Under the pieces are notes generated by a model. The model did not search any database, had not been told where the DNA came from, and was given only the letters and a program-made list of their open reading frames with translations. The position numbers and the translations under genes were made by a program. Shown here one piece after another: positions 37,099 through 55,304 of a DNA stretch of 64,000 nt. How positions within the stretch are numbered: position 1 is the first letter of the stretch; each line of letters starts with the position of its first letter. Origin of the DNA: Nibricoccus sp. (GTDB lineage Bacteria > Verrucomicrobiota > Verrucomicrobiia > Opitutales > Opitutaceae); the NCBI GenBank assembly GCA_047602425.1, contig JASGHG010000001.1, positions 1,950,263 through 2,014,262 on the forward strand, in the 5' to 3' direction.

Positions 37099-37305
37099 TT
37101 AGTCTGTTCTGATTTTCTTGATCGCCAAGGCAATACCGATCAAAAGGAATAGTGATATAAATATCACCGTTATCGCTTTGAATTGAACAGGGCTATAGCC
37201 AAACATAAGGTAGAGGACTGAACACGCGAATAATGACATCACCGCGCCGCCAATAGCACCACACAGTAGTCCGACAACGACAGTATATACTTTATTGTAA
37301 TTCAT
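37099..37305 (-). CDS. Small two-TM membrane protein, putative immunity protein for the RHS C-terminal toxin
   Basis: 68 aa with two hydrophobic helices (VVVGLLCGAIGGAVMSLFACSVLYL; ITVIFISLFLLIGIALAI). Its ATG overlaps the RHS stop codon (ATGA, 37302-37305). Confidence 0.65.
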   Translation of the reverse strand: MNYNKVYTVVVGLLCGAIGGAVMSLFACSVLYLMFGYSPVQFKAITVIFISLFLLIGIALAIKKIRTD

Positions 37306-40300
37306 TTATAATAATTATGAGCGGGTTGCGGTGCTGCACCTCCTGAGAAAAATAAATCCGTGACCGGAGATAAGTTCGCAACGACTACACCGGCCCCGGT
37401 ACCCAACTGGGTACCTAAAGTAGGCGGAGCTTTTTCACCGCGGAATAGGAGCGGCTTCCAACGCCCTTGTAAGGCCCCAGAATCGAGGAGGCCCTGCGTA
37501 AACGGACTTGGTTGCACAAATGACGCAAAGGCCCTTTCTGTGAGATCACCGGCTATAGATCCTCCAGCGCCAAACAGACCTCCTACGGTTGCAGCATACC
37601 CCAAATCTTTTTCCCAATCCGAACCACTAGCCACATTTTTCACTATTTGGCCAGTGCCGTTGATGACCGCACTACCTACACCGTTCAATACGGCACGACC
37701 GAGTATATTAGTCGTAAGCTGTGCAACCTTTCCTCCCAATCCTACGCCTGCCGCTCCAGCAAGACCACTCACTAAAACAGATGTTTTGTTCACCTTCGAC
37801 CAATCTCCATGATTACTTATCAGCTGCACTGTAAGATCTACTCCGGCGCCAATAAAAAAGCCCGCAATAGCCCAAGCAAATTTGCCTTCCGGGTCGGTCA
37901 TCATCACCGGGTTTCCGTTTGCAAACGCATACCAATTCATACCACCCGCAAAGCCAATTGGGTCGGCGTTTAGGAATCGTTGGGTATATGGGTTATAAAA
38001 CCTAGCTCGCATATAAACCAATCCACTCGACTCAGTCATCACTCCCAATGAACCGTGCAGAAGAAATGGAGTGTCAGCGCTGCCAGTTTGTGACCTCACC
38101 TGGCCGTAGGCCGCATATTCCCAACGTCCAAGTACCGAGGTGCCATTGTCGCTTGAGAGGGCGATAGTACTTCCCTGATGGTTGTAGTGGTAGGTTTTAG
38201 TGGCTCCATCTGTTTCTTCGTAAACAAGCCCGATTCCCCAAACATAGCGTGTGATCGTCCCGCCATTGTTGCGCACGAGGACCCGGCTGAGTGAAGCATT
38301 GGGGTCGACCAAGTAGTGGATCGAACCCACCCGATAGCGGTGGCCTTCGGGGTTGTAGCCGTAGCTGACATTGTTGCAGCTGCTGAGTCGATTGCGACCG
38401 TCGTAAGTATAACTGCCGAACGAGCCATCTTTTGGCAATGGACCTAGCGTCATGTTTCCATCGTCGTCGTGAATAACAGGAACGTCGTTCCACGTCTCCA
38501 ATCGGTTGTCGTTGTCGTAGGTCGCCGAGTAATAAGGCGCTGAAGTAACTCCGCCGGAGTCCGAGACCGGAGCGGTAACCGCGAGGTCAATCCGACCATC
38601 CTTGTCGTAGCGCAACACCTGTTGCCAAATCACATTCCCCAAGACATCGAGTTCCTGAACAAAGCAAAGCTGGCTTGCGGCGTCATATTGCATATTTCGC
38701 TTTGTTCCATTGGGCCGATACACCTGTTTGAGCCTGCCTCCTGCATCGTAAGCGTAAGATGTAACCCGCCCGTTCCAGTCACTGACCGATGCCATGCGGT
38801 TGTAGGCATCATATCCATAGGTTACCACCTTGTTGCCTGGGTAGGTGATCGTCTCCAGATTGCCAGCAGCATCATAAGTGTACTGAAGCGTGTTACCATC
38901 TCCATCCCGGTACAATTTCAACCGATTGAAATCGTCGTATTCTCGATGGGTGGTCATGCCGCCCTCCGATACTTCATGCAACATGCCGTTGGGATAATAG
39001 CTGAATGTCGTCTCAATACCCAAACCGTCTTTTTGCTTCAGTAGGCGGCCTTCGGCATCGTACTCTTTGAATTCGGTGACTCGCAGCGAAGGAGCAGTGA
39101 CCGTCTTTAACAAGCCACGCGTATCTTTTTCAACAATCGTACTTTTCTGCTCAGGAGTCTTGGTCGTCACCTTTCGCGCGACATCGTCGTAGGTCCAAGT
39201 ATAAGTCTGCTCCCGCCGGTTCTTGAGCGTTTTTGGACGCCCATCCTTGTCATAGCCATGGATGATCGAAAAGCCCATCGCGTCACCAGTAGAGTCAACT
39301 AAGCCCAAGCTATTGTAGACGCTATCAGTTTCGTGCCCCAGCGCCGTCTTCATGTAGTTACGCTGGCCGTTTGCATCGTAATCGAAATAGGTGTGTCGGA
39401 CGAGTGGATCGATCGTTTCTTTGAGCCGTGACGCGTCGTCATATTTAAACTGCGTATCGTTGCCAAAAGCATCGATAGTGAAGCCCAAGAGATTCCGTTC
39501 GTCGTAATGCTGCGATTTTACTACCTGGCCATCCGCTCCCTTCACCTCAATAAGGTTGCCCAAAGCATCATAGTCATAATCGACTTTATTATTGCGAGGA
39601 TCCAAGATGTAATCAACAGCACCAGCATCATCATATGTCGTCGTGGAAACAATAGAATCGCTCGGCGGAGTTCCTCCCACTGGTGAAGTCGCATCGTAAA
39701 GGCCGGACCATTGAACAGTTTTGGTTTTTTGCCGGCGTTTGTTATATTCGAAGGTCGTTTTCCGTCCACCGCGATCGATGAACTGTATAACATCACCCCG
39801 CGCATTCAGGTCGGTGATCTCGGTTGGGGCGGTCGTATCGGTCGGGGCGGTCGGGTAGGTGGCAGTTACTCGTTTTGTGTAACCCGCGACATCAGTATAC
39901 ACATAGCTAATGACTTCCCCTGCGGCGAATGCTGTCGGGTGTACCGTCAACACACGCCCACGCGAATCGTAAGTATATGAAGTGGTAAAGCCTCCAGTCG
40001 CTGTCACGTTCTTCACTTTGTGATACCCGTAGTATTCCGTAGTCGTTTGATTTCCTTCAAACGAGTTTTCCACACGCGAAGTTGAACTGTCGTCGTTCTC
40101 CGGAGTGATCGTTCGCGAGTTGCCGTCAGGATTGGTAACCTGGTTAACCTCGTGATGGGCGTCATAGGCCATTGTCGTCTCTTCACCTTTGGGCGACCGT
40201 GTATACTCTACCCGGTCGTTTCCGTCGTAGCCCCATCGCGAAACATTGCCGAGTTGGTCTCGGTAGGCGATCTTCCGACCACGCTCATCGAAATACGTCC

Positions 40301-43268: not shown

Positions 43269-43287
43269 GACTTAAATATAGTAAAAT

Positions 43288-44094
43288 TTACTGAGGTCCT
43301 TCCACGTTCCCTTCCTTGTCATATTTATGCGTTCGCGTGGGATCAGCTGTGAGACGATTATTTGCGTCATACTGATAACGGGCGGTGGCTGCTGGGTTGG
43401 GCGTGCTAGCCGCATTGTACGGACTGGAACCACTCGCAATCTCGACATAGTCGGGGTAGCCATCGTTATCGAAATCGATCGATGCAGCTGGAGACTCGAT
43501 CGTGAATCTCTTTCGCACCGTAGGGGTAGAGGCCCCTGAACGATCAGTGACTATAACAACCACAAAATGCAGTCCCGTACCCAGTTCGATGGGACAACAC
43601 GTGTAGCTAAAGCCTGCTCCGAGGTATCGGCTTGATGGCCCCGGGTATCCCAATGAGTTTACGGAATAGTCAGCAATATCCGGTCGGGCGAGTCCTACCG
43701 AAGGCCTTCCGACAAATATACCGTCGATGTATATTTTTATCGAATCGACCGGTGTCCCATCATCCCGGTCGACTGCCCACCCGCCTATATTCAAAATCCC
43801 CCCCTGCAGGTAAGCCGTTTCCAACGATGCAAGGGGCGGAGAGTTCACAATCGCATGGAAATAACTTCCTTCCCTGGCTTGAAAGCCGGCCTTTAAGACA
43901 ATCTGAGACGATGCAGAATACGTTACATTGGCACCGCTTTCAACAGTCACATTTGGGCCAGCCTCAATCGTCGATGGTCCTGAGACGGTCGTTGAGACCC
44001 CTGAAGAATACGTAACATCCTGTATGATTGTTTGGGCTCTGAGTCCCAACGCGGTCAACAACCAAAATAAAAGCAACAATGGAATTCGTTTCAT
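43288..44094 (-). CDS. Secreted accessory protein: LKAGFQAREG-type module, Ig-like domain, DNDG calcium-binding-like motif, C-terminal YD repeat
   Basis: Signal peptide MKRIPLLLLFWLLTALGLRAQ. SSQIVLKAGFQAREGSYFHAIV, IDFDNDGYPDYVE, and a terminal YQYDANNRLTADPTRTHKYDKEGNV. Its stop lies 19 nt upstream of the RHS start. Confidence 0.7.
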   Translation of the reverse strand: MKRIPLLLLFWLLTALGLRAQTIIQDVTYSSGVSTTVSGPSTIEAGPNVTVESGANVTYSASSQIVLKAGFQAREGSYFHAIVNSPPLASLETAYLQGGILNIGGWAVDRDDGTPVDSIKIYIDGIFVGRPSVGLARPDIADYSVNSLGYPGPSSRYLGAGFSYTCCPIELGTGLHFVVVIVTDRSGASTPTVRKRFTIESPAASIDFDNDGYPDYVEIASGSSPYNAASTPNPAATARYQYDANNRLTADPTRTHKYDKEGNVEGPQ

Positions 44095-44149
44095 ATTTTG
44101 AAAGGGCCAAGGCAGGTTAGTAATAGGTTTCTAATAATTTTTAATTCAG

Positions 44150-45062
44150 CTAGTTACTGCTCTTGAGCCGTGTGATTTCCGTTTGTTGAGCAGCTATTTG
44201 AAAAGCTTGGGCTTCGATTTTAGATTTCTGTTCGTTAAGCTGTTTCTGCTGGTTGATGACGTGCAAAGTCAGCTCTTCAACTTTAGCCAAGAGGATCGGC
44301 CTGCATATCGCCGATGGAGACGCCGTTGGCAGCAACCTCCGTCGCCGAGGGCACGCCGGGCAAATGGCCTTGCTGCTCGATATGCCGCTCCACCTCGGCA
44401 AGCGGTGCTAACTTGTAGTCTTTGGCAAAAACGCAGTCCGACCAGTTGGTGGTTTCAACAACCACTTCTCTCGCGCGAATCCTTCCATTGACCGAAAGCT
44501 TTTCATTCGGGCTCGTCGTTCCGATACCGACATTTCCACCAACTGCTATATGTAATCTTGAAGTTTTCGCTGAATTAAAATCCTCAACGATATCGAAGGA
44601 GTTAGAGTTCCTAGCTACGGAACCACAAGTTAGCCCCCAACTATTGCCATAGGCATTCAATGAAAGCACTGCTTCAGCCAGCACACTTTGGCTATCGTTG
44701 CGTACCGCCGCTACAACTGCACTATCTACCGTCTTCCACAGATGCAGATCATAAATTGGTCCTACAGACCCAATGCCAATGTTGCCGTTATTATCAATCC
44801 GAAGACGGACCATTCCCGCTACATCATCATAGAATTGAAATCCTCCAGGAGTACCCACGCTTGGACCAAGTCGAAAACTGTGACCCAAAGAGTCCTGCAA
44901 TTGCAGAGGGTCCGTCGCAGTATTACCGACTAGCGTCAGTCTTGCTGCAGGATTGCTAGTACCAATACCGACATTGCCTGATTCAGGCCAAGGATAAGTA
45001 TTTTGAGAGTAACCAGCAGCTGAGGTCATGAGAAACGTAACAAAAGCGGCGATCTTTTTCAT
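44150..45062 (-). pseudogene. Tail-fibre-like secreted protein, paralogue 1 of 9 (frameshifted in the conserved C-terminal module)
   Basis: ORF 44283-45062 ends ...GVSIGDMQADPLG*. The expected continuation ILLAKVEELTLHVINQQKQL...coiled coil is in ORF 44150-44401 in another frame. An extra C sits in GCAGGCCGATCC (about 44298-44301), where intact paralogues read GCAGGCGATCC. Confidence 0.8.
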
Positions 45063-45076
45063 GGGGGTAATAAAAG

Positions 45077-46285
45077 CTATAATGTTTTATTCAGTTTTGT
45101 GTTTTCTGTTTTAAGAGCGGCAATTTCGGCTTGTTGGTCATTGAGACGCTTCTCTTGCTGGATCTGGCGGAGCGTCAGTTCTTCAATCTTGGCGAGGAGG
45201 ATTGCTTGCATATCACCGACGGAGACGCCTTTGGCGGCGACTTCCTGCGCGGAGGGGACTCCGGGGAGGTGCCCTTGTCGTTCGATGTGTTGCTCGACTT
45301 CGCTGAGCGGTGCCAGCTTGTATTCCTTAGCGAAAACGTAGTCTGACCAATTCGTCGTCTCCACGATCACTTCCCTCGCCCGAATCCTGCCATTGACCGA
45401 AAGCTTCTCATTCGGGCTTGTCGTACCTATGCCGACGTTGCCATCGCCACGTATCACCATCTTTGAGTTTGCTGGAGCCGATCCCTTGAGTCGGAAATCG
45501 ATAAATGTATTGTCACTATTATAAGTGTTAGCTATAAAAACCTTGTTAGCGGTTGGATCCTCACCAAGCCGACCCATGTAGTACGTTTGTGATCCGAACG
45601 CAATGACCTCTCCATCGGTGTCATCCCATCGCCTTACGTCCAAAATGGCGCTAGGACTTGCGGTGGCTATACCGATTTTCCCACCGCTCCCTGTAACAAA
45701 CATAGCGTCATTAAGGTTAAGGATCTTGTATAGGGATTGCGTTCGATCATATGAGATCAGTCTCCCTCGATCGGCCGATGTTTGATATGTGAGCTCAACA
45801 CCTCTACCAACCGAAGGCAGTCCGACCTCATCCGTAACAGACACTGCACCTGCAATATCTAGCTTAGATCTCGGGGTAATCGTACCCACTCCGACGTCAC
45901 CTGAGCCGCCCAATACAGTGATCCCTCCTCCGTATAAGTCGCCACTACTTAAGGGACCACCAAGAAAAACACGATCGTTAACCGCTCGCAATACGCCGAT
46001 CCAATCCGAACCCGCCTGATTTGGGGCTAATATCCCACTGTTACCGACAAGGATTTGCCCAGCGCCTGTGAAATTGCCACCCGGGACAAGCGCTGGATCG
46101 ACATTCAGCGCAAGCGACCGTGCTGGCTGATTCACGCCTAGACGCAATGCCTTGTAGTACGAGCTATACCCAAAGTTTGTTTCCTGAATGGGAATCTGAT
46201 CGGGTCCTACGTAAACCGTCTGCGCGAGAACAGACGCAACTGCAGCAACTGCAAACAGGACTAGGATGCTAAGATTTTTTTTCAT
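45077..46285 (-). CDS. Tail-fibre-like secreted protein, paralogue 2 of 9
   Basis: Signal peptide and a divergent N-terminus. Internal GDVGVGTITPRSKLDI / GKIGIATASPSAILDV. Conserved C-module GNVGIGTTSPNEKLSVNGRIRAREVIVETTNWSDYVFAKEYKLAPLSEVEQHIERQGHLPGVPSAQEV...MQAILLAKIEELTL plus a coiled coil. Confidence 0.85.
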   Translation of the reverse strand: MKKNLSILVLFAVAAVASVLAQTVYVGPDQIPIQETNFGYSSYYKALRLGVNQPARSLALNVDPALVPGGNFTGAGQILVGNSGILAPNQAGSDWIGVLRAVNDRVFLGGPLSSGDLYGGGITVLGGSGDVGVGTITPRSKLDIAGAVSVTDEVGLPSVGRGVELTYQTSADRGRLISYDRTQSLYKILNLNDAMFVTGSGGKIGIATASPSAILDVRRWDDTDGEVIAFGSQTYYMGRLGEDPTANKVFIANTYNSDNTFIDFRLKGSAPANSKMVIRGDGNVGIGTTSPNEKLSVNGRIRAREVIVETTNWSDYVFAKEYKLAPLSEVEQHIERQGHLPGVPSAQEVAAKGVSVGDMQAILLAKIEELTLRQIQQEKRLNDQQAEIAALKTENTKLNKTL

Positions 46286-47277
46286 TTTTGGCCTTCTTTC
46301 TCAATTAGCTTTTGCTGAAGCCGGACATTTTCCGATTCGAGAGTTTGAACTCGTTTTTCCTGTGCAATTACGTGCAGCGTTAATTCTTCAATTTTCCCCA
46401 AGAGGATGGCTTGCATGTTGCCGACAGAGACGCCGTTGGCAGCAACCTCCTTCGCCGACGGCACGCCTGGCAAATGACCTTGCTGCTCGATATGCTGCTC
46501 CACCTCGGAAAGCGGTGCTAACTTGTAGTCCTTGGCAAAAACGCAGTCCGACCAGTTGGTGGTTTCAACAACCACTTCCTTCGCCCGAATTTTGCCATTG
46601 ACCGAGAGCTTTTCGGTCGGGCTCGTCGTGCCGATGCCGACGTTGCCGGAAGCTGCCAAATATACCCTCTCGGTCCCGTCGGTAACTGGATTTCCACCCA
46701 AGGCATTGGACTGCATAAAAGCGAGATCACCGTAGGAGGTTCTGCCTTGCACGAGCGCCCAATTTCTCGAATTTGATTGTGTATAATCATTCAAAAACGC
46801 GATCCCACTTCCGCCTATACCTGACAAACCAGTATCATGAAATGCGGTAATAATATTCTGAGATACCTTTGCCACTTCCAACGCATAACCCGGCGCTGAA
46901 GTTCCGATGCCAACATTATTGTTGGCTTTTAGCACAATGTATCCACCCGCAGGATTATTTCGATTAAATAGGAATATATCCTCACCTGTCGTACTTCCAT
47001 TAAAGATCCCGATTGCTCCACTACTGAAACCAACATTATAGACATTTCCGCTTTGTCCTGCATAAAAATTACCGTGGTTGAAGCCCCAGTACCCCTGAGG
47101 CGCTTTCGCGATAAAGCTGATTAGCCCATTGGCTGTAATCGTACCATTTACTTCGAGAGCTGAAGTCGGGTTCATTGTACCAATACCGACACTTCCGGAC
47201 GCCGGCCAGGGAGTATTTTGTGCATAGCTGCTGACCGCGCCGATGAATGACGACAAGACTATCGATAGAATTTTCAT
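46282..47277 (-). CDS. Tail-fibre-like secreted protein, paralogue 3 of 9
   Basis: Signal peptide, YAQNTPWPASGSVGIGTMNP, and the conserved C-module. Its stop overlaps the start of paralogue 2 by 4 nt. Confidence 0.85.
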   Translation of the reverse strand: MKILSIVLSSFIGAVSSYAQNTPWPASGSVGIGTMNPTSALEVNGTITANGLISFIAKAPQGYWGFNHGNFYAGQSGNVYNVGFSSGAIGIFNGSTTGEDIFLFNRNNPAGGYIVLKANNNVGIGTSAPGYALEVAKVSQNIITAFHDTGLSGIGGSGIAFLNDYTQSNSRNWALVQGRTSYGDLAFMQSNALGGNPVTDGTERVYLAASGNVGIGTTSPTEKLSVNGKIRAKEVVVETTNWSDCVFAKDYKLAPLSEVEQHIEQQGHLPGVPSAKEVAANGVSVGNMQAILLGKIEELTLHVIAQEKRVQTLESENVRLQQKLIEKEGQK

Positions 47278-47342
47278 GATGAAGAACTCGACAAGTAACG
47301 TGCGAATAATCGGGATCCAGAAACGAAAGAATTATGACTTTG

Positions 47343-48581
47343 CTAGGGATGGGTGGATTTTAGATGGGCAATCTCGGCTTGTTGGGCGGCAATTTGCGTC
47401 TGTTGCGTATTTAGCTGCTTCTGCTGGCGGATCACGTGCAGTGTGAGCTCTTCGATTTTCGCGAGGAGGATAGCTTGCATATCGCCAATGGAGACACCGT
47501 TGGCTGCAACCTCCTTCGCTGAGGGCACGCCGGGCAAATGACCTTGCTGTTCGATGTGCTGTTCCACCTCGGAAAGCGGTGCTAACTTGTAGTCCTTGCC
47601 AAAAATATGGTCCGACCAGTTGGTGGTTTCAACAACCACTTCTCTTGCACGAACTCGGCCGTTGACCGAAAGTTTCTCGCTCGGATTCGTCGTACCGATA
47701 CCGACGTTGCCCAAAGGATCAATGGTAGCGGCATCTAGGTTGCTATTACCGTCCGAAACACGGAACGTTATTCTCCCCTTAGTGCCGCCGGCATAAACAG
47801 AGCCGAAGTATGCGTTATCGCCACCCTCGCCGGATGCTCCCCCTCCATACGAAACAAATGCGTAGCAGTTTGAAGAATTCGGTCTTGAAACTCGCAACCC
47901 GTCAGAAAGCAATCCGGCACTATTTAAATTCTGAACATGAAGTTTTGCTTCCGGGCTGGCGGGGCCAACGGCGAGGCTGCCCGTAGTCACGATATTTGTA
48001 TTCGTTGAAGTTATGAGATTTCCAGCAATAATGTGTGCCTGCCCTCCAGCTGGAGTTTCCTCAACATTATGTATAGTAATGGCGCCTTTGCTATCTATTA
48101 CACGCCACGCTACAGTCGGTGCATATTCCGACGCTCGGATTCTAATATATACCGTACGCGGCCCGCCGGTGCTACCAACCACGCGGACTTCCCGAAGATG
48201 CTCATTGTAAGTTTGTCGCTCTACACTAAAACCCACGCGGTCATTAAAGTAGGTTCCAAAAACCTTCACTTCGGCAATTTCTTCGCTCGCATTCGAACCA
48301 CTGCGAATTTGAAACCTAACGTAGTGGTTGTTAGGAATTGTCGCTAATTTGATCCATCTTTCATCACCAATCCCGAGGGATATACTTTGCAGCGAGGAGA
48401 AATATAGTTCTCCGATTCTAAATGATCCTCCTACATGAGTGTCACCACTCACATCGAGGGTAAAATTAGGATTAGTCGTGCCAATTCCAACGTTCCCGGA
48501 CGCGGGCCAAGGATACGTGTTTTGAGCATAAGTGCTGCCTGCAAAAACAAGCCCAAATATAAATGAGATGAAATATTTCAT
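47343..48581 (-). CDS. Tail-fibre-like secreted protein, paralogue 4 of 9
   Basis: Signal peptide, YAQNTYPWPASGNVGIGTTNP, a unique core, and the conserved C-module plus coiled coil. Confidence 0.85.
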   Translation of the reverse strand: MKYFISFIFGLVFAGSTYAQNTYPWPASGNVGIGTTNPNFTLDVSGDTHVGGSFRIGELYFSSLQSISLGIGDERWIKLATIPNNHYVRFQIRSGSNASEEIAEVKVFGTYFNDRVGFSVERQTYNEHLREVRVVGSTGGPRTVYIRIRASEYAPTVAWRVIDSKGAITIHNVEETPAGGQAHIIAGNLITSTNTNIVTTGSLAVGPASPEAKLHVQNLNSAGLLSDGLRVSRPNSSNCYAFVSYGGGASGEGGDNAYFGSVYAGGTKGRITFRVSDGNSNLDAATIDPLGNVGIGTTNPSEKLSVNGRVRAREVVVETTNWSDHIFGKDYKLAPLSEVEQHIEQQGHLPGVPSAKEVAANGVSIGDMQAILLAKIEELTLHVIRQQKQLNTQQTQIAAQQAEIAHLKSTHP

Positions 48582-48598
48582 TGATTCTGAATTTACGA

Positions 48599-49804
48599 TT
48601 ACTTGGCCTGCGCTTTAAGCCGTGTATTTTCTGACTCCAAAGCTTCGATACGCTTTTCTTGTCTAATTGCGTGGAGCGTTAACTCTTCAATCTTAGCCAA
48701 TAGAATCGCTTGCATTTCGCCCATCGAAACCCCTTTCTCCGCCACGTCTTTCGCCGAAGGAACGCCAGGGAGATGCTTCTCGATTATGATGTGCTGTTCA
48801 ACCTCGGTCAAAGGCTGCAACTTGTACCCATCGGCAAACACGTAGTCCGACCAATTCGTCGTCTCTACGACCACTTCTCTTGCGCGGATTCGGCCGTTGA
48901 CTGACAGTTTTTCGGTTGGGCTCGTCGTACCGATGCCAACGTTGCCACCTTCGGGATTCAATAAGAGGGAATAACTAGTTCCACTCTGCAATGTAGTATT
49001 ACCTGTGGCATTATTATACAATTCCAGCGTCCCGGCTTGCGCCGCAGTTGGTGTACCGTAACCAAGTCCAGAGCCAAGTTTTCCGCTATTGGATATGGCA
49101 ACGCTTCCGCAAACTTCTAATGTTTTGGATGGACTCGTCGTTCCGATGCCGACGCTGCCATTCGCATCAATACGCATACGTTCGGATATATTGACTGCGC
49201 CTCCATCAGTCGACGTTTGAACGGGCCCCGTTAAAAACGCAATGTATCCTCCGTTGGCCTCGATTGCTGAACGTGATGCTGGAACCTCGGTGCTGGATAC
49301 ATAACCAATGTCCAAATGTTTTGCCTTAACGGCATAGCCAAGAAACGACGCACCAGAACTATATTGCGAACCAAGCACGAACAGCGTGCCGCTGCCATAC
49401 GCACCGTAGAGATAGTCCACCCCCCAAGTGCTGTTATCATAGCCAGCGGTAATCGGGCCAATCACATGCAACGGTGTGCGTGGGCTCGTCGTGCCAATAC
49501 CGACGTTGCCGCCGCCGGGGTTAAGGCTTAACGGGTAGTACTGTACTCCGGTTTTCATCGCTTGGACGTATCCATAACCGAAGTCGGCTCGAAAACCGAT
49601 TCGCGTGCCTTCTGGGCTTCCATCTCCAGGATCAGACGAAGCCGCACCACTAAAGAGACCTGAGCCGACAACCGCCAATTTCGTACTAGCTCCCGGGTTA
49701 GTCGTTCCGATACCAATGTTGCCGGAGTTCTGCCAGAGGTTTGTTTGAGCGTAGCTGGTGGTAATGACGGCGAGCGGAAAAAGGAGGACTGTGTAGATTT
49801 TCAT
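48599..49804 (-). CDS. Tail-fibre-like secreted protein, paralogue 5 of 9
   Basis: Signal peptide and four GN(V/I)GIGTT punctuation motifs (GNIGIGTTNPGAS, GNVGIGTTSPRTPLHV, GSVGIGTTSPSKTLEV, GNVGIGTTSPTEKLSV), then the conserved C-module. Confidence 0.85.
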   Translation of the reverse strand: MKIYTVLLFPLAVITTSYAQTNLWQNSGNIGIGTTNPGASTKLAVVGSGLFSGAASSDPGDGSPEGTRIGFRADFGYGYVQAMKTGVQYYPLSLNPGGGNVGIGTTSPRTPLHVIGPITAGYDNSTWGVDYLYGAYGSGTLFVLGSQYSSGASFLGYAVKAKHLDIGYVSSTEVPASRSAIEANGGYIAFLTGPVQTSTDGGAVNISERMRIDANGSVGIGTTSPSKTLEVCGSVAISNSGKLGSGLGYGTPTAAQAGTLELYNNATGNTTLQSGTSYSLLLNPEGGNVGIGTTSPTEKLSVNGRIRAREVVVETTNWSDYVFADGYKLQPLTEVEQHIIIEKHLPGVPSAKDVAEKGVSMGEMQAILLAKIEELTLHAIRQEKRIEALESENTRLKAQAK

Positions 49805-49849
49805 ATGGATGTTTTAACCACTGATATTCATTGATGAACACTGATATAG

Positions 49850-50791
49850 TTATATACTCCCGGCTTTGAGCTGGGCGTTTTCCGCTTCGAGGGCTTTGAT
49901 TCGCTCGTTCTGCGATGCGAGCTGTTTCGCTTGCTGAATTTGATGCAATGTCAGTTCCTCAATCTTCGCCAAGAGGATCGCCTGCATGTAGCCAATGGAG
50001 ACGCCCTTCTCAGCCACTTCTTTCGCGGACGGAACTCCGGGAAGATGCTTCTCGGTTATGATGTGCAGCTCCACCTCGGCGAGTGACTGCACCTTATAGC
50101 CGTCGACAAACACATAATCCGCCCAGTTCGCTGTCTCCACAATCACTTCCCTCGCGCGGATTCGGCCGTTGACTGAGAGCTTTTCCGATGGGCTCGTCGT
50201 GCCGATGCCGACGTTGCCAGTGTTGGCTTGAATTCTTACCTTCTCGCTGCCGTCCAGATTGAACGTTATGAATCCACCAAAACCCGATGTTCCGGACTGT
50301 AGTTTTAATTCGCCGCTTTGAATATTAGCCAATAGGTTCGCCTGTATGCTTCCGTTCGTAGCGAAATTTATTCCTTTAAACTGGGAATTGTCGGTGCCGT
50401 TTAGAGTTAAAATTGGCGCAATACCCTTAACTTCCAGCAAGCTTGCCGGCGTAGTCGTGCCGATACCTATTTTACCACCGTTGGGATTTAAAAGTAGTGG
50501 ATAAATTTGAGTGAGATCCGTTTGGTTTGTTACCTGCAACGACCCTCCATCGCCGCCGTTCACGCTAAAATCAATCACGCCATTGCTACCCGCTCCCTGT
50601 AACCGAAGGATTCCAACTTGGTTTGATCCACTGCTCGCAGGAAAGCCGGTATCGCCAAGGATGTGTGTTCTCAATCCCGGGCTCACAATTCCGATGCCAA
50701 TATTACCGGAGGCAGGCCATGGATAAGTGTTTTGCGCGTAGCTATTGGCTATAATGGCGAGCGAAGTGAGGAGGAGTGCAAAAGATTTCAT
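49850..50791 (-). CDS. Tail-fibre-like secreted protein, paralogue 6 of 9
   Basis: Start placed at the internal MKSFALLLTSLAIIANSYAQ|NTYPWPASGNIGIG. Conserved C-module present. Confidence 0.85.
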   Translation of the reverse strand: MKSFALLLTSLAIIANSYAQNTYPWPASGNIGIGIVSPGLRTHILGDTGFPASSGSNQVGILRLQGAGSNGVIDFSVNGGDGGSLQVTNQTDLTQIYPLLLNPNGGKIGIGTTTPASLLEVKGIAPILTLNGTDNSQFKGINFATNGSIQANLLANIQSGELKLQSGTSGFGGFITFNLDGSEKVRIQANTGNVGIGTTSPSEKLSVNGRIRAREVIVETANWADYVFVDGYKVQSLAEVELHIITEKHLPGVPSAKEVAEKGVSIGYMQAILLAKIEELTLHQIQQAKQLASQNERIKALEAENAQLKAGSI

Positions 50792-50840
50792 CGGGGCATT
50801 TTCAACCACTGATTTTCACTAACGACCATGGATATAGGTT

Positions 50841-51896
50841 TTATTGGGATCGGGCTTTGAGCTGGCTGTTCTCGGTCTTGAGCGTGGTGACTTCAGCGCG
50901 AAGAGAGGCCAGTTCTTTTTCCTGCGCTATCTGGTGCAGTGTAATCTCCTCAATCTTGGCGAGCAGGATCGCCTGCATGTCGCCGAGTGAGACGCCGTTG
51001 GCTGTCACATCCTTCGCGGATGGGACGCCAGGGAGGTGCTTCTCCATTTTAATGTGCTGCTCGACCTCTGCCAAAGGTCGCAACCTGTAGCTATCTGCGA
51101 AAACGTAATCTGACCAATTGCTCGTCTCTACGACTACTTCTCTCGCACGGATTCGGCCGTTGACCGAAAGTTTTTCCGATGGACTCGTCGTACCTATGCC
51201 AACGTTGCCGTTCGATCCTTGTATAAACATTCGAATGCTCGGAGTATAAGCTGATCCGATGGTCAGGCCGATATTCGTGCTAATCGCCAGATTTCCAGCG
51301 GAGAAACTAACCTGCCCAGAATTTGAATCTCGAGCGATCCACCCGTTGCCCGATATGTATTCAGCATTGTGTGTTATTGCCAGTTCCCCGGAGTATCCGC
51401 TAAAATAGCCTCCACCCTGACCGCTGTTCAGGTTAACACGCAAAGATGTACCGGTGTCGCCAGGGCTGCCATAGCATTTATCGGCATAAATCACCGGAAT
51501 GTTGGTGCCCGTTGTAGGGCCAAGAATGTGCAGCGATGCTGTCGGAGCCGACGCGCCGATTCCAATACGACCAGCAGCATCAATTAATAATCTATCGGCG
51601 CAAGCAAGATTGTCAGCGAAATGCCATTTGCTTTCACCAGATCCGTCCACGTATATACCAAAGGTTCGCCCACCGACCGCTGTGTTGGAAAACTGAATCC
51701 CTGAACCCCAGCCGGGACCATTGCCGGTGAGATAAATCGCGGGAAAATTAACCGACGCCGAGTCTATATGCAAACGGCCAGAAACAGGGATGGTCGTTCC
51801 GATGCCAATATTTCCTGAATTCTGCCACAAATTGGACTGAGCATAACCAGCCGTTGTGGACGCAAAGACAATAAAATGAACCAAAGTGAATTTCAT
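50841..51896 (-). CDS. Tail-fibre-like secreted protein, paralogue 7 of 9
   Basis: Signal peptide, YAQSNLWQNSGNIGIGTT, and the conserved C-module plus coiled coil. Confidence 0.85.
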   Translation of the reverse strand: MKFTLVHFIVFASTTAGYAQSNLWQNSGNIGIGTTIPVSGRLHIDSASVNFPAIYLTGNGPGWGSGIQFSNTAVGGRTFGIYVDGSGESKWHFADNLACADRLLIDAAGRIGIGASAPTASLHILGPTTGTNIPVIYADKCYGSPGDTGTSLRVNLNSGQGGGYFSGYSGELAITHNAEYISGNGWIARDSNSGQVSFSAGNLAISTNIGLTIGSAYTPSIRMFIQGSNGNVGIGTTSPSEKLSVNGRIRAREVVVETSNWSDYVFADSYRLRPLAEVEQHIKMEKHLPGVPSAKDVTANGVSLGDMQAILLAKIEEITLHQIAQEKELASLRAEVTTLKTENSQLKARSQ

Positions 51897-51909
51897 CGAA
51901 TCATACTTG

Positions 51910-53115
51910 TCACTTAGCCGTGGTTTTTAATCGTGAATTTTCGGTTTCGAGAACCTGGAGTTTAGCCTGCAAATCATTGATCATCTTTGCCTGCGTAAGT
52001 TGGATTTTTTCCTGCGCGATTTGATGCAGTGTTAGTTCCTCGATCTTCGCCAAGAGAATCGCCTGCATATCTCCGATGGAAACGCCCTTTTGGCCGACCT
52101 CCTGCGCGGAGGGCACGCCGGGGAGGTGCTTCTCGTTTTTGATGTGCTGCTCCACTTCAGCCAATGGTTGCAACTTGTAGCTATCGGCAAAGACATGGTC
52201 CGACCAATTGGCCGTTTCAACGACCACTTCCTTCGCCCGTATCTTGCCGTTTACGGAGAGTTTTTCCGACGGGCTCGTCGTTCCTATACCGATATTCCCA
52301 CCACGGGTGATCGACAGTCTTTCTGCAAAAGTGCCGTCAGAATTAAGATCGTTTGTATATAGCCCTATCGTCGTTCCATAACCTCCATCACGACCGAATA
52401 CTATACCCGCCCCCCCGCCACCACCTGATTGGTATGTGATTCCATCCCAGCATACGTTACCGACATCTCCGTCTATTCGAATGCCATTTCCACTCAGCTG
52501 ATTGATATTAGAAGGGAGTGTTGTTTGGCTACTTCCGGCGATGGTCAAACGACTGGAGGGGGCAGTAGTCCCAATCCCGACCTTTCCACCAATCGGGTTG
52601 ATGACCAGGCTCTTATAGTTGTCTCCCGGCTTCACAGCTTGAATCCATGAATAACCCCCGTCGTTGATGCCTATGAGGAGCTTATTATCTGTGTTCTCGC
52701 CAGTACCCGTAGTGACCTGAAGAATCCCTTGATCAGTAACAGATGAACTCGACCCCGTAACCGATAATTTCCCCCAAGGCGTTTTTGTTCCTATCCCTAC
52801 GTTGCCGTAGTCATACATTGAAATTATCGCTTGGATATTGCCGTCCGAATATCGCTTATTGCCTATCGTAAATGTATACCCCGTCCGGTCTGAACTGAAA
52901 ATAAGTGCACCCTGATTTGGGTACTCCAAGTTCTCCATTGTCACCCCACGATAGCTGTTGGACAGCAATCTAATTGCGGTACTATTTACGTCCAATGCAT
53001 ATTGAGGATTCGTAGTCCCGATGCCGACATTACCTGCATTCTCCCACAGGTTGGTTTGCGTGTAACCAGCAACGGTAACCATAATAATACAGAGTAATGC
53101 AATGATGGATCTCAT
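51910..53115 (-). CDS. Tail-fibre-like secreted protein, paralogue 8 of 9
   Basis: Signal peptide, YTQTNLWENAGNVGIGTTNP, four punctuation motifs, and the conserved C-module plus coiled coil. Confidence 0.85.
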   Translation of the reverse strand: MRSIIALLCIIMVTVAGYTQTNLWENAGNVGIGTTNPQYALDVNSTAIRLLSNSYRGVTMENLEYPNQGALIFSSDRTGYTFTIGNKRYSDGNIQAIISMYDYGNVGIGTKTPWGKLSVTGSSSSVTDQGILQVTTGTGENTDNKLLIGINDGGYSWIQAVKPGDNYKSLVINPIGGKVGIGTTAPSSRLTIAGSSQTTLPSNINQLSGNGIRIDGDVGNVCWDGITYQSGGGGGAGIVFGRDGGYGTTIGLYTNDLNSDGTFAERLSITRGGNIGIGTTSPSEKLSVNGKIRAKEVVVETANWSDHVFADSYKLQPLAEVEQHIKNEKHLPGVPSAQEVGQKGVSIGDMQAILLAKIEELTLHQIAQEKIQLTQAKMINDLQAKLQVLETENSRLKTTAK

Positions 53116-53144
53116 TATTTTATGAAGTTAAATCTAGAATAGAC

Positions 53145-54327
53145 TTACGGCTTAGTTGCCTTTAATCGCTCGTTCTGCGCCTTGAGATAAAACACCTCGT
53201 TCTGGAGCGAGTTGAGCGATTTTTCCTGCGCGATCTGCTGCAATGTTAGTTCTTCGATTTTTGCCAGAAGGATGGCCTGCATGTCGCCGACGGAAACGCC
53301 GTTGGCGGCAATTTCCTGCGCGGACGGCACACCGGGTAGGCGCTTCTCGGTTTTGATGTGCTGCTCTACTTCGGAGAGCGACTGTAACTTGTAGCTATCG
53401 GCAAACACGTAATCCGACCAACCCGTCGTCTCTACGATCACTTCCTTCGCCCGGATCCTGCCATTGACCGAAAGCTTCTCGCCCGGGCTCGTTGTGCCAA
53501 TGCCGACGTTGCCACCATTCTCTTGGAGCGTAACTGGCTCTCCGCTTGATGTTGTATATATTGCCAGCCGCCTAGCAGCATTGAACCATTTGATATAGCC
53601 TGCCTGACTATACCACGTTCCTAGGCCAAGGTAAGAATCCACCGACTGCCCTCCCGAAAGCCACGCCCCATAATAGTCTCCGTCTGAACCCACATTAAAC
53701 GTTCCTCCAACTACGCTCAACTTTTGCATCGGAGTAGTCGTGCCGATGCCAATATTGCCGTTTTTAAGAACGGTCCAAGGATTTGAAAACGCTCCGTTAT
53801 AACCCTCCAATGTGAACATCGAGTCCCGTGCACTGAATTGCCATGCAGAAATTGAGGTGTTGTATATGCCTCCACCTGTAACAGCTCTGTTGAAGCCAAG
53901 TCCCGCTGTTTCGCCCGCTCGAATGCTGATGGCATTCGCTCCACCGTCAGAAATCACTAATTTATCTCCAGGATTGGTCGTCCCAATGCCGACATTGCCA
54001 CCCAATGGGTTAAGCGCAAGAGGGTAGCAAAATCCATTAGCTCCATTGTTGCGGGTCTGCATCCACCATGCATTCAAGGCGCTTTGATCATAACCCATCG
54101 CTAGGTCTACTCCTCCGTTACCCGCAGTGAAATTTACGATAGCCGAAGCCGTAGAGTTGAGCGACGGCGCGAACGTCGAAGCATTCTTAACCGTCAAGGC
54201 AGATGTCGGACTCGTTGTGCCTATACCAACGTTGCCAGAAGCAGGCCAAGGATATGTATTTTGGGCGTGGACTACAGTTGCAGCGGCGAGGCTCGAAGGA
54301 GGCGAGGAGCAGGAGGTGTTTGCTCAT
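53145..54327 (-). pseudogene. Tail-fibre-like secreted protein, paralogue 9 of 9 (frameshift inside the signal peptide)
   Basis: The track ORF (53145-54197) starts inside the protein. Its frame is open up to 54323 and reads ...SLAAATVVHAQNTYPWPASGNVGIGTTSPTSALTVKNAS..., but contains no start codon. The only ATG (54327, MSKHLLLLASFE...) is in another frame. The two frames join near 54292. Confidence 0.75.
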
Positions 54328-55221
54328 AAAGATAGGGTTGGACGAAGTTAAAGCGGAACAAGTGCAGGCGCAGACCTGCCTTTACCTTGTGGTGCAAGAG
54401 GGCGGTGCGACCCAAAAGAACAGCGGGCCGGCTTATTGGGCCAACTAGCTGCAACCAGCGGTTGGGGTGGCCATGAGCGGGCAGCCTGAGCAAGCTACCG
54501 GACAGCCAGAAGCCATGCCGGAAGGCACGGACGTGCGGAGCGTAACAGCTCGAAAGCATAATTGAAGGGTTGCGCGACAGGTAATGACGGCATGAACGCC
54601 ATCGGCGTGATGCGATCTGGGGTCCTACCCTATCGCGCCAAGTCACCCGCCAAGGGTTTCCCACGTGAAAAGAGTTGAATGCTAGATCAGTTCCCAATTC
54701 GCCGAACCATTTGCCTGATGTCAATACGTTTTCTTCAGTTTTTGTGACAGCGCAGCAAATTTCAGGTCACAGCAGTTGCGTCGATCGCACACAAAAACTG
54801 CCCACAGCGCCCGTATGGCGTCGGTCAAATTCTAAACCACGCTTCAATGGGATTTGCGTTCCCTACAAAAAACCCTTCACCCAATTCTTATCGGCTTTCT
54901 TATCGGTTTTGAAACCCCGACTCGCCAAGCAGAGTGAAAATTCAAAATACTGCACATTGTTCATCTGTCAGTTTACAAACGCAATGGACGTAGATGGACG
55001 TCCTTCAGAAAACTTAAAATCCCTTGTCCGAAAGGATGTGCATCCAAAACCGGCGAGGGTCGAAATGAAGCATACGAACAGAGTATCTAACCGCTAGATT
55101 GCCGCTAAAATGGTTAGCTTAAGCCTAACTTTTTGATACGGACAGAGGCCATAAATTATAATTAAAACATTTATCTTGAACAACTTACTAAAGTATTTAA
55201 TTTTCTATAAACTGCCCAAAC

Positions 55222-55253
55222 GCGGGTTCAACCCCCGCCACCTCCACCAATTT
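55222..55253 (+). repeat. tmRNA/tRNA 3'-end fragment with complete T-arm and encoded CCA (att-like, right copy)
   Basis: GCGGG-TTCAACC-CCCGC-CACCTCC-A-CCA followed by ATTT. Compare the E. coli ssrA 3' end GCGGGUUCAACUCCCGCCAGCUCCACCA. The upstream sequence is AT-rich and not tmRNA- or tRNA-like. Confidence 0.75.
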
Positions 55254-55255
55254 GC

Positions 55256-55304
55256 AAAAAGCGCTGTGACATATTTTTATTTCGCAGCGCTTTTTTGTTT
55301 TTTT
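55256..55304 (+). terminator. Rho-independent terminator (bidirectional-looking) immediately after the CCA end
   Basis: AAAAA-GCGCTG-(18-nt loop)-CAGCGC-TTTTTTGTTTTTTT. It could also terminate the convergent radical SAM gene. Confidence 0.75.

What the first reader, a model, noticed from the sequence alone, without database searches (positions are those of the whole stretch)
44150..54327. The fibre paralogues are built from variable modules separated by a 16-17-aa 'punctuation' motif
Inside every paralogue the motif G-[NSK]-[VI]-G-I-G-T-[TS]-x-P-x-x-x-L-x-[VIL] recurs two to four times. It occurs at the mature N-terminus, between the variable segments, and at the entry to the conserved C-module.

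- Paralogue 5 has GNIGIGTTNPGAS, GNVGIGTTSPRTPLHV, GSVGIGTTSPSKTLEV and GNVGIGTTSPTEKLSV.
- Paralogue 8 has four copies, paralogue 9 has four, and paralogues 1, 2, 3, 6 and 7 have three each.

The segments between motifs (about 60-130 aa) do not resemble each other between paralogues. A conserved short boundary motif around non-homologous modules fits two ideas. It could be a structural collar of a trimeric fibre. At the DNA level it could also provide micro-homology for module shuffling between copies.
Basis: seen in the sequence. Interest (0 to 1): 0.65.

Follow-up and report, generated by a model that had tools for sequence, protein, structure and literature searches.

The report
Capping-loop motif punctuating mosaic fibre genes
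Nine tandem genes of a Verrucomicrobial genome encode short secreted fibre proteins made of interchangeable modules, each opened by a 16-residue motif that is the already described "capping loop" of phage-type trimeric fibres. Comparison with relatives shows that whole modules have been swapped, inserted and deleted exactly at this motif.

Summary
**Observation.** It is confirmed. The nine tandem minus-strand genes at 44150-54327 carry 30 copies of G-N-V-G-I-G-T-T-x-P-x-x-x-L-x-V. Copies lie at the mature N-terminus, between variable segments and at the entry to a conserved C-module. There are none elsewhere in the window.

**Novelty of the motif.** The motif is not new. It aligns residue for residue with the crystallographic "capping loops" of the intertwined trimeric beta-helix of Bdellovibrio MAT fibres and S74 phage tail fibres (Caulton 2024). 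It also recurs up to 62 times in giant fibre proteins.

**Module shuffling.** This is supported.
- Modules 60-94% identical sit between unrelated neighbours.
- Two such cases lie within this genome.
- The junctions fall in the invariant first half of the motif.

**DNA micro-homology.** The motif is conserved at the protein level, not the DNA level.
- Internal motif copies use scrambled synonymous codons.
- Exact shared runs have a median of 6 nt and reach 16 nt at most.
- Micro-homology is therefore weak and at most a by-product.

**What looks undescribed.** The family itself appears to be unannotated.
- It consists of Sec-exported short fibres.
- A conserved C-terminal module without the S74 signature, plus a coiled coil, has no Pfam, NCBIfam, PDB or phage match.
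- The genes form tandem arrays directly upstream of RHS toxins or secreted peptidases in Opitutales and Bacteroidota.

The parts
44150..45062 (-). par1: fibre paralogue, frameshifted in the C-module (extra G near 44297). Motif copies at 44978-44931, 44786-44739 and 44537-44490.
45077..46285 (-). par2: fibre paralogue with a 107-aa N-terminal region before its first motif. Motif copies at 45901-45854, 45682-45635 and 45442-45395.
46282..47277 (-). par3: fibre paralogue. Motif copies at 47196-47149, 46920-46873 and 46647-46600.
47343..48581 (-). par4: fibre paralogue. Motif copies at 48497-48450, 47981-47934 (degenerate GSLAVGPASPEAKLHV) and 47711-47664. Its 246-aa middle region is 83% identical to a module of paralogue P0066 elsewhere in the genome.
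48599..49804 (-). par5: fibre paralogue with four motif copies at 49723-49676, 49510-49463, 49159-49112 and 48946-48899. It was used for the structure model and the homologue search.
49850..50809 (-). par6: fibre paralogue. Motif copies at 50707-50660, 50476-50429 and 50218-50171.
50841..51896 (-). par7: fibre paralogue. Motif copies at 51815-51768, 51572-51525 and 51209-51162.
51910..53115 (-). par8: fibre paralogue with four motif copies at 53034-52987, 52806-52759, 52587-52540 and 52299-52252.
53145..54327 (-). par9: fibre paralogue with its ATG at 54327 and a frameshift inside the signal peptide. Motif copies at 54236-54189, 53999-53952, 53759-53712 and 53513-53466. Its module 2 is 89% identical to module 1 of paralogue P0054 elsewhere in the genome.
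43288..44094 (-). Context: a 268-aa secreted protein directly downstream of the array. Homologues sit in the same position in two Opitutales loci.
37302..43268 (-). Context: a 1988-aa RHS-repeat protein (signal peptide, transglutaminase-like domain, DUF6531, RHS repeats) downstream on the same strand. The pairing of fibre array and RHS recurs in other genomes.

Best explanation
**What the genes encode.** The nine genes encode Sec-exported, short (about 260-410 aa) fibre proteins of the intertwined trimeric beta-helix type. This is the type found in S74 phage tail fibres and Bdellovibrio MAT adhesins.

**What the motif is.** Each protein is a chain of 2-4 beta-helix modules. The 16-residue motif G-N-V-G-I-G-T-T-x-P-x-x-x-L-x-V is the conserved strand, 8-residue loop, strand "capping loop" that opens and closes each module. 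It is conserved because the fold needs it, not because the DNA needs it.

**Why modules can be exchanged.** Every module begins and ends in the same structural element, so modules are mutually compatible. Over evolutionary time whole units have been inserted, deleted and exchanged between family members. A unit is motif positions 9-16, the variable segment and the pre-motif strand. The crossover lies in the invariant first half of the motif (G-N-V-G-I-G-T-T).

**The C-terminus.** The last motif leads into a conserved C-terminal module: about 60 aa with the signatures W-S-D-Y-V-F ... H-L-P-G-V-P-S-A, followed by a heptad coiled coil. This module stands where phage fibres carry the self-cleaving S74 chaperone.

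**Shown.**
- The identity of the motif.
- Its homology to solved trimeric fibres.
- The mosaic distribution of modules.
- The position of the junctions.
- Protein-level rather than DNA-level conservation.

**Inferred.**
- That the proteins form trimers.
- That the C-module with its coiled coil nucleates or registers the trimer and/or docks the fibre.
- That the variable N-terminal modules bind different ligands.
- Whether junctions cluster at the motif because of short by-product micro-homology, or because only in-register chimeras fold.
For: **Motif identity**
- PDB sequence searches hit only Bdellovibrio MAT fibres (8OND, 8OML, 8OJN, 8OL4, 8ON4), and they do so through the motif.
- In 8OJN the matched stretches RVGVGTTAPTSALH and FFGINTAAPAYNIH are exactly the capping loops R656-H669 and F752-H765 named in PMC10769870.

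**Fold**
- The AlphaFold2 model built with a 111-sequence alignment has pLDDT 67.5. Each motif forms strand, 8-residue loop, strand, with pLDDT 75-94 around three of the four copies.
- The top 15 Foldseek PDB hits are all MAT beta-helix domains, with E from 8e-6 to 2e-2.
- 178 BFVD hits reach E <= 1e-3. Those I recorded are S74/ICA-domain tail fibres of cyanophages, uncultured tailed phages and algal viruses.
- tblastn of the shaft hits cyanophage tail fibres at 27-33% identity.
- PHROG tail-fibre families are hit.

**Generality**
- 80,934 representative proteins match the profile of motif plus C-module.
- Giant proteins carry 23-62 motif copies at a median spacing of 70-116 aa.
- In 124 homologues the median spacing is 80 aa.

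**Mosaicism**
- Module cluster C0 (101-111 aa in 17 members, 167 aa in one) occurs in 18 proteins, at positions 1, 2 or 3, with at least 10 different neighbour types.
- Divergence of a module correlates only weakly with divergence of the C-module (rho 0.12-0.50).
- In this genome, par9 module 2 equals P0054 module 1 at 89% identity with unrelated neighbours.
- Also in this genome, par4 equals P0066 at 83% identity, except that P0066 has one extra unit of motif plus 58 aa.
- The sub-modules of par4 occur separately in P0253 and P0046.

**Junction position** (108 module pairs at least 60% identical)
- Where the left flank differs (n=91, 7% identity), the second half of the left motif is still 63% identical. 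Background is 39%.
- Where the right flank differs (n=85, 9% identity), the second half of the right motif is at background (39%).

**DNA level**
- Identity between paralogues jumps from 27-30% to 83-85% at the first base of the last motif.
- In arrays of other genomes, 45% of the 5' ends of tracts at least 85% identical lie within 15 nt of a motif. For random positions it is 14%.
- The identical-codon fraction in internal motif copies is 0.327, against 0.292 expected from codon usage.
Against: **Oligomeric state.** It was not tested. The model is a monomer, TM-scores to solved fibres are low (0.1-0.3), and the inter-motif parts have pLDDT below 50.

**Module clusters.**
- They come from a hit list selected for similarity to par5, and they use single linkage. 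The number of distinct "contexts" may therefore be inflated.
- Some short metagenomic proteins may be truncated.

**Age of the exchange.**
- No closely related strain is available; the best homologue is 51-57% identical. Ongoing exchange and exact nucleotide breakpoints therefore could not be observed.
- The DNA of the second locus of the same genome could not be fetched.

**Trivial component of the DNA result.** Homology tracts ending at the last motif are partly trivial, because that motif is by definition the start of the conserved C-module.

**Function.** What the C-module does, and where the proteins end up, is unknown.
Confidence: 0.8

Rival explanations
1. **Simple duplication and drift.** The modules are all divergent copies of one ancestral repeat. 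Only the structurally constrained motif remains recognisable, and no exchange between genes has taken place.
For: - Motif spacing is regular, with a median of 80 aa.
- Some module clusters are related at the profile level: C1~C4, C3~C17 and C9~C22 at about 91% probability, and C5~C10 at 78%.
- The paralogues are old. The C-module is 75% identical in nucleotides, and 48% of codons for identical amino acids differ.
- Motif codons are scrambled.
Against: - Modules 60-94% identical are flanked by sequence only 7-9% identical and of different length.
- The same module occurs at different ordinal positions, and next to either another module or the C-module.
- Two paralogue pairs of this genome differ by exactly one unit, or share exactly one unit.
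- 228 of 253 cluster pairs show no profile similarity.

Common ancestry of many modules is likely, but it cannot be the whole story.
Confidence: 0.08
2. **Conservation for recombination.** The motif is maintained mainly as a recombination signal. DNA micro-homology between copies drives cassette shuffling within and between the tandem genes, and that function explains its conservation.
For: - Junctions of exchanged or deleted units fall in the invariant core.
- High-identity DNA tracts in arrays of other genomes start in or next to a motif.
- Some pairs of copies share exact runs of 14-16 nt.
Against: - Internal copies share codons at the rate codon usage predicts (0.327 against 0.292).
- Mean nucleotide identity is 68% over the first 30 nt, and the median exact run is 6 nt. 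From general knowledge of RecA-dependent recombination, this is too short.
- The motif is equally conserved inside single giant proteins and in phage and eukaryotic-virus fibres.
- It has a defined structural role in crystal structures.
Confidence: 0.1
3. **Prophage or tailocin remnant.** The genes are tail-fibre genes of a prophage, a tailocin or a contractile injection system, and the array is a phage host-range cassette.
For: - PHROG tail-fibre families are hit, and so are cyanophage tail fibres.
- One homologue is named "Phage T4 tail fibre" by JGI.
Against: - The ten neighbouring ORFs scanned show no phage, tail, baseplate or sheath domains. They include an RHS protein, a radical SAM enzyme, a hybrid histidine kinase and a TonB-dependent receptor. 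Not every ORF of the window was scanned.
- Eight of the nine genes encode an intact N-terminal signal peptide. In par9 it is broken by the frameshift.
- The C-module is absent from 50,697 phage genomes.
- The family is chromosomal in 80 loci of Opitutales, Bacteroidota and other phyla, usually upstream of secreted proteins.
Confidence: 0.02

Closest known systems
Bdellovibrio bacteriovorus MAT (mosaic adhesive trimer) fibres: Bd3182, Bd2133, Bd1334 and Bd2439 (Caulton et al. 2024, PMC10769870)
   Same: - They are the only PDB relatives by sequence and the best by fold.
- They share the capping-loop motif and the pre-motif strand (S-E-R-M-R-I-x-x-x-G-N-V-G-I-G-T).
- They have a signal peptide.
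- They form a multi-paralogue repertoire.
- They have a mosaic architecture with one conserved end and one variable end.
   Different: - The window proteins are 3-4 times shorter.
- They lack the roughly 130-aa N-terminal beta-rich anchor domain.
- Polarity is reversed: the C-terminus is the constant part, and the N-terminal and middle modules vary.
- The C-terminus is neither S74 nor one of the known adhesive tips.
- The genes lie in tight tandem arrays, in a non-predatory Verrucomicrobium.
S74 (intramolecular chaperone, auto-processing) phage tail fibres and tailspikes: T5 pb1 (4UW8), K1F endosialidase (3GW6), cyanophage fibres; also MyRF
   Same: - They share the intertwined beta-helix shaft with capping-loop motifs.
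- The shaft is followed by a C-terminal, largely helical module that is presumed to set the trimer.
   Different: - There is no Peptidase_S74 match, even at E = 10.
- The S-D-x-x-x-K Ser-Lys dyad is absent. The Ser of W-S-D and the Lys of Y-K-L do not reach the 90% conservation list; across homologues the Ser position also reads A or P and the Lys position R, Q, A, D and others.
- No self-cleavage is therefore expected.
- The proteins are not virion components.
T-even phage gp37/gp38 adhesins with conserved glycine-rich motifs or His-boxes between hypervariable segments (Trojet 2011, PMC3157838; Tetart 1996 and 1998)
   Same: - Short conserved motifs separate variable segments.
- The motifs form the structural core.
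- Exchanges are observed within or near the conserved motifs, which gives mosaic adhesins.
   Different: - The sequence and fold are unrelated.
- gp38 is monomeric, and its variable segments are loops of about 10-30 aa rather than beta-helix modules of 50-100 aa.
- The comparison is an analogy only.
"Tail-fiber" repeats within polymorphic toxin proteins (Zhang et al. 2012, PMC3482391)
   Same: - Fibre-type repeats are associated with RHS and Sec-dependent toxin systems.
- The RHS protein of the window has the N-terminal transglutaminase-like domain listed there.
   Different: - There the repeats are fused into the toxin polypeptide as a stalk.
- Here the fibres are separate small genes in arrays upstream of the RHS gene.

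Membership tests
Intertwined trimeric beta-helix fibre with capping loops (shaft of S74/MAT fibres) | Capping-loop sequence motif. It is printed as V-G-G/N-pi-X-X-P-X-X-X-L in the text held of PMC10769870; the solved examples are RVGVGTTAPTSALH and FFGINTAAPAYNIH. | tested here: met
   There are 30 copies. phmmer aligns them to exactly the capping-loop residues of Bd3182, and to three copies in Bd2133.
Intertwined trimeric beta-helix fibre with capping loops (shaft of S74/MAT fibres) | Fold similarity of the shaft to solved fibres. | tested here: inconclusive
   The top 15 Foldseek PDB hits are all MAT beta-helix domains, most with probability 0.94-1.0 and three Bd2439 hits at 0.63-0.82. However, TM-scores are 0.1-0.3, because a monomer model of an intertwined trimer was used. 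pLDDT is 67.5 overall and below 50 in parts of the modules.
Intertwined trimeric beta-helix fibre with capping loops (shaft of S74/MAT fibres) | Homotrimer with strand-swapped faces. | not testable with these tools
   No multimer prediction was available. The trimer is inferred from homology and from the C-terminal coiled coil.
Peptidase S74 / intramolecular chaperone auto-processing domain | Match to the Peptidase_S74 (PF13884) domain at the C-terminus. | tested here: not met
   There is no Pfam hit for the nine proteins at E <= 1, nor for 37 C-modules at E <= 10. A profile search of the PDB finds no S74 chain beyond the motif. NCBIfam gives nothing.
Peptidase S74 / intramolecular chaperone auto-processing domain | Catalytic Ser-Lys dyad in S-D-x-x-x-K. 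| tested here: not met
   In the 111-sequence alignment W318 and D320 are conserved. The intervening Ser, and the Lys of Y-K-L, are not among the columns conserved at 90% or more. In the C-module alignments the Ser position also reads A or P and the Lys position R, Q, A, D and others. The spacing is S-x8-K.
MAT superfamily as defined for B. bacteriovorus | Conserved beta-rich domain of about 130 aa immediately after the signal peptide. | tested here: not met
   In eight of the nine paralogues the first motif starts about 9 residues after the predicted cleavage site. par2 has a 107-aa N-terminal region of unknown relation. No direct comparison with a MAT N-domain sequence was possible.
MAT superfamily as defined for B. 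bacteriovorus | Conserved N-terminal end with a diversified C-terminal tip (S74 or an adhesive domain). | tested here: not met
   Here the C-terminal 100-115 aa are the conserved part: 80% amino-acid identity among the paralogues and invariant columns across 111 homologues. The middle is variable.
MAT superfamily as defined for B. bacteriovorus | Display on the cell surface. | not testable with these tools
   Only an N-terminal Sec-type signal peptide can be read from the sequence.

The most novel reading that the evidence does not exclude
**Reading.** The tandem arrays are libraries of interchangeable targeting fibres.
- Their conserved C-terminal module and coiled coil dock onto the protein encoded directly downstream. 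This is an RHS/Tc-like toxin in the window and in 21 of 80 related loci, and a secreted M4 or S8 peptidase or a BNR/sortilin protein in others.
- The variable, motif-bounded N-terminal modules would then provide target recognition for a secreted effector.
- Cassette exchange at the capping-loop motif would diversify the target range.

**What would be new.** This would be a new, phage-independent use of tail-fibre architecture with reversed polarity (constant C-terminus, variable N-terminus).
Probability: 0.15. Interest if true: 0.8.

Novelty: new variant of a known kind. Interest (0 to 1): 0.45.

Why it matters
**What is already known.**

**What the follow-up adds.**
1. A defined exchange unit and crossover position for module shuffling in this fibre class. 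The crossover lies in the invariant G-N-V-G-I-G-T-T half of the motif, which is useful for engineering chimeric fibres.
2. An unannotated protein family.
   - About 23,000 representative clusters reach E <= 1e-30. This count is an upper bound, because giant proteins with many motif copies and no C-module also score this well.
   - It has no Pfam, NCBIfam or PDB match.
   - One member is mis-named "bZIP transcription factor".
   - In it the S74 chaperone is replaced by a conserved non-proteolytic module and a coiled coil.
3. A conserved gene order of fibre array followed by an RHS toxin or a secreted hydrolase in Opitutales and Bacteroidota. This suggests a functional link that could be tested directly.

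Tried and rejected
**Searches that found nothing or little**
- Pfam and NCBIfam on all nine proteins gave nothing meaningful.
- A literature search for the motif string found no paper.
- Promoter-like and terminator-like sites in 43000-55400 were no more frequent than in shuffles.
- Rfam found no RNA family in 43000-55500.
- The homologue search with the 246-aa par4 module returned only five proteins and missed P0066, so that tool is not exhaustive.

**Computations that failed or fell short**
- The single-sequence AlphaFold2 model was useless, with pLDDT 35.5.
- Four attempts to fetch the DNA of the second paralogue cluster of the same genome (P0020, P0054, P0066, P0001) all failed. Nucleotide breakpoints for the two in-genome mosaics could therefore not be read.
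- A crude regular expression for YD repeats under-detected RHS neighbours. It was replaced by BLAST clusters plus Pfam.

**Readings rejected**
- The C-module as a divergent S74 domain. There is no profile hit, and the Ser and Lys are not conserved. The only hint is a weak Foldseek match to the MyRF ICA domain (E 0.85).
- A prophage origin.
- Recent gene conversion homogenising the whole array. Only par1, par3 and par4 show tracts of about 97% identity.
- The glycine-rich motif as a nucleotide-binding loop. It is repeated in secreted fibre proteins and maps to a structural loop.

Full report
**1. What is there**

The window comes from a 5.16-Mb contig of a metagenome-assembled Nibricoccus sp. 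(Opitutaceae, Verrucomicrobiota).

Nine paralogous genes lie head to tail on the minus strand between 44150 and 54327. The gaps between them are -4 to 65 bp.

Each protein has four parts:
- A Sec-type signal peptide ending in ...Y-A-Q.
- A mature N-terminus, Q-N-T-Y-P-W-P-A-S-G-N-V-G-I-G-T or Q-T-N-L-W-Q-N-S-G-N-I-G-I-G-T.
- A variable middle.
- A conserved C-terminal 100-115 aa: G-N-V-G-I-G-T-T-S-P-x-E-K-L-S-V-N-G-R-I-R-A-x-E-V-x-V-E-...-W-S-D-Y-V-F-...-H-L-P-G-V-P-S-A-...-L-L-A-K-I-E-E-L-T-L, followed by a heptad coiled coil.

The two terminal genes are damaged. par9 has its ATG at 54327, but a frameshift lies inside the signal peptide. par1 has an extra G near 44297 that cuts off the coiled coil.

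**2.

- A profile of the motif finds 3, 3, 3, 2 (+1 degenerate), 4, 3, 3, 4 and 4 copies in par1 to par9.
- A loose regular expression finds 27 copies, all in this region and on this strand. Shuffles gave a mean of 0.145 and a maximum of 1.
- Inter-motif segments are 48-105 aa, and longer in par4.

**3. What the motif is**

Pfam and NCBIfam find nothing in the proteins. PHROGs gives tail-fibre families, mainly through the motif.

Searches of PDB sequences return only the Bdellovibrio bacteriovorus MAT fibres (8OND Bd2133, 8OML and 8ON4 Bd1334, 8OJN/8ONB/8ONC Bd3182, 8OL4/8ONF Bd2439). They match through (S)-E-R-M-R-I-x-x-x-G-N-V-G-I-G-T-x-x-P-x-x-K-L-x-V.

Caulton et al. 2024 (PMC10769870) describe these fibres as intertwined trimeric beta-helices. 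"Capping loops" at the helix edges carry a consensus motif that is also present in S74 phage fibres and in MyRF. In the Bd3182 chain, the two stretches aligned to the window motif are RVGVGTTAPTSALH and FFGINTAAPAYNIH. With an offset of 630 these are exactly the published capping loops R656-H669 and F752-H765.

An AlphaFold2 model of par5 built with 111 homologues has pLDDT 67.5. It puts each motif into strand, 8-residue loop, strand, and these are among the most confident parts of the shaft; the most confident region overall is the C-terminal helices. Its best PDB fold matches are all MAT beta-helix domains. The viral matches I recorded are S74/ICA tail fibres of cyanophages, uncultured tailed phages and algal viruses.

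**4. How general it is**

- A profile of motif plus C-module matches 80,934 of 1.84 billion representative proteins at E <= 1e-3.
- Giant proteins of 2,700-7,900 aa carry 23-62 motif copies at a median spacing of 70-116 aa.
- In 124 homologues of par5 the spacing has a median of 80 aa.

The punctuation is a property of this fibre class, not of these nine genes.

**5. Are the modules unrelated?**

Within the window only one pair of inter-motif segments is significant by BLAST.

Using homologues, 328 segments fall into 192 clusters. Profile comparison joins some of them:
- A class ending in ...L-N-P-x-G-G: C1, C4 and C13.
- A set of pairwise-related clusters (C3~C17, C3~C9, C9~C22, C5~C9, C5~C10); pre-motif strands of the ...E-R-M-R-I-x-x-x-G type are common in the family.

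Still, 228 of 253 pairs show no similarity. The modules are partly divergent homologues and partly of undetectable relation.

**6. Have modules been exchanged?**

Yes.
- Cluster C0 (par5 module 2; 101-111 aa in 17 members, 167 aa in one) occurs in 18 proteins at position 1, 2 or 3, with at least 10 different neighbour types. Clusters C1 to C3 behave alike. Divergence of a module correlates only weakly with divergence of the C-module.
- Six further paralogues lie elsewhere on the same contig, under locus tags QM715_20175-20200.
  - par9 module 2 is 89% identical to module 1 of P0054, while the neighbouring modules are unrelated.
  - par4 and P0066 share a 246-aa region at 83% identity, but P0066 has exactly one extra unit of motif plus 58 aa.
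- The two sub-modules of par4 occur separately. P0253 lacks the second, and P0046 carries it internally between other modules.

**7. Where are the junctions?**

I examined 108 module pairs at least 60% identical.
- Where the upstream flank is unrelated (n=91, 7% identity), the second half of the upstream motif (positions 9-16) is still 63% identical. Background is 39%, and the no-junction control is 75%.
- Where the downstream flank is unrelated (n=85, 9% identity), the second half of the downstream motif is at background (39%, against a control of 82%).

The exchanged unit therefore runs from motif position 9 through the next pre-motif strand. The crossover lies in the invariant G-N-V-G-I-G-T-T core.

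At the DNA level:
- Identity among the nine paralogues steps from 27-30% to 83-85% at the first base of the last motif.
- In arrays of other genomes, the 5' ends of tracts at least 85% identical lie inside a motif in 30% of cases and within 15 nt in 45%. Random positions give 8% and 14%.
- Two tracts of 518-542 nt start at an internal motif.

**8. Is DNA micro-homology the reason?**

The evidence argues against this.
- The 30 copies use all synonymous codons.
- Mean nucleotide identity is 68% over the first 30 nt.
- The median exact shared run is 6 nt and the best is 14-16 nt. The single run of 29 nt is between two C-entry motifs.
- For internal copies the fraction of identical codons at identical residues is 0.327, against 0.292 expected from codon usage. 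For C-entry motifs it is 0.567.

The paralogues are old. The C-module is 75% identical in nucleotides and 80% in amino acids, and 48% of codons for identical amino acids differ. The exception is par1, par3 and par4, which share tracts of about 97% identity.

Conservation therefore acts on the protein. Short by-product micro-homology may help rare illegitimate exchange, and selection for foldable, in-register chimeras may do the rest. The data cannot separate these two. [quoted passage not shown]

**9. The family**

The C-module beyond the motif has no match in:
- Pfam (only coiled-coil noise).
- PDB by profile.
- 50,697 phage genomes.

The S74 Ser-Lys dyad is not conserved. Public names are "hypothetical protein", or wrongly "bZIP transcription factor".

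The family is not a MAT member as that family is defined. It has no N-terminal anchor domain, and its polarity is reversed.

A scan of one genome per species found 277 confirmed loci, of which 80 were kept. They come from Opitutales, many Bacteroidota and a few other phyla. Twenty-five of the 80 hold two or more copies, with up to 15 in Sphingobacterium spiritivorum.

**10. Context**

The ten neighbouring ORFs I scanned show no phage domains. The window array is followed on the same strand by a 268-aa secreted protein and a 1988-aa RHS protein.

In the related loci:
- Twenty-one of 80 have RHS-type giants downstream on the same strand, often 0-130 bp away.
- Others have M4 peptidases (11 loci), BNR/sortilin proteins (5) or S8 peptidases (4).
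- Two Opitutales loci repeat the order of fibre or fibres, then a homologue of the 268-aa protein, then a giant protein (an RHS protein in one, a 1,404-aa ORF cut by the locus end in the other).

This suggests, but does not show, a functional link.

**11. Verdict**

The motif is known. The shuffling idea is supported, with a defined crossover position. The DNA-level rationale is weak. The family and its arrays appear undescribed, which makes this a new variant of a known kind and of moderate interest.

Noticed in passing
window 37302-44094, and loci L002, L005, L010, L012, L013, L017, L021, L022, L027, L037, L043, L044, L048, L050, L068, L073, L074: Gene order is conserved. The fibre gene or array is followed on the same strand, often within 0-130 bp, by RHS-type giant proteins (21 of 80 loci). 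Sometimes a small secreted protein lies between them. In other loci the downstream gene is an M4 peptidase (11), a BNR/sortilin protein (5) or an S8 peptidase (4). No control for chance co-location was run.
   Followed up: partly
window about 54290 (par9) and about 44297 (par1): Both terminal genes of the array carry a single-base frameshift. In par9 it lies inside the signal peptide (ATG at 54327). In par1 it lies before the coiled coil (extra G). They are either decaying pseudogenes or assembly errors of the MAG.
   Followed up: partly
same contig, outside the window (NCBI locus tags QM715_20175-20200; proteins P0079, P0066, P0037, P0020, P0065, P0054): A second tandem cluster of six paralogues exists in the same genome. 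Two of them share single modules with par4 and par9 at 83-89% identity. Their DNA could not be fetched.
   Followed up: partly
window 44256-44537, 46367-46647, and the par4 C-module at about 47440-47711: The C-modules of par1, par3 and par4 contain tracts of about 97% nucleotide identity, with exact runs of 33-47 nt. The array-wide mean is 75%. This points to recent gene conversion or duplication within this subgroup only.
   Followed up: partly
window, par1 to par9 N-termini and C-modules: Two N-terminal types (N-T-Y-P-W-P-A-S-G and T-N-L-W-Q-N-S-G) and two C-module subtypes (F-A-K-D-Y-K-L-A-P...Q-Q-G-H and F-A-D-x-Y-K-L-Q...E-K-H) are combined incongruently. par6 and par9 pair the first N-type with the second C-type.
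   Followed up: no
proteins P0128, P0129, P0134, P0135, P0139, P0140, P0145: Some representatives carry three C-modules in tandem within one polypeptide. They may be fused array genes or read-through gene calls.
   Followed up: no
window 43288-44094 (residues 19-99 of the 268-aa protein): Its N-terminal stretch (...I-V-L-K-A-G-F-Q-A-R-E-G-S-Y-F-H-A-I-V) has homologues next to fibre genes in two Opitutales loci. It also recurs at the C-terminus of an S8 peptidase (L059) and near the C-terminus of an unscanned 671-aa ORF (L065). A similar short motif opens a Bacteroidota RHS protein (L074).
   Followed up: no
protein P0110 (Opitutus sp., MEO6003413.1): A family member is annotated "bZIP transcription factor" in NCBI. 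This is evidently because its C-terminal coiled coil gives weak bZIP hits, and it is a misannotation.
   Followed up: partly
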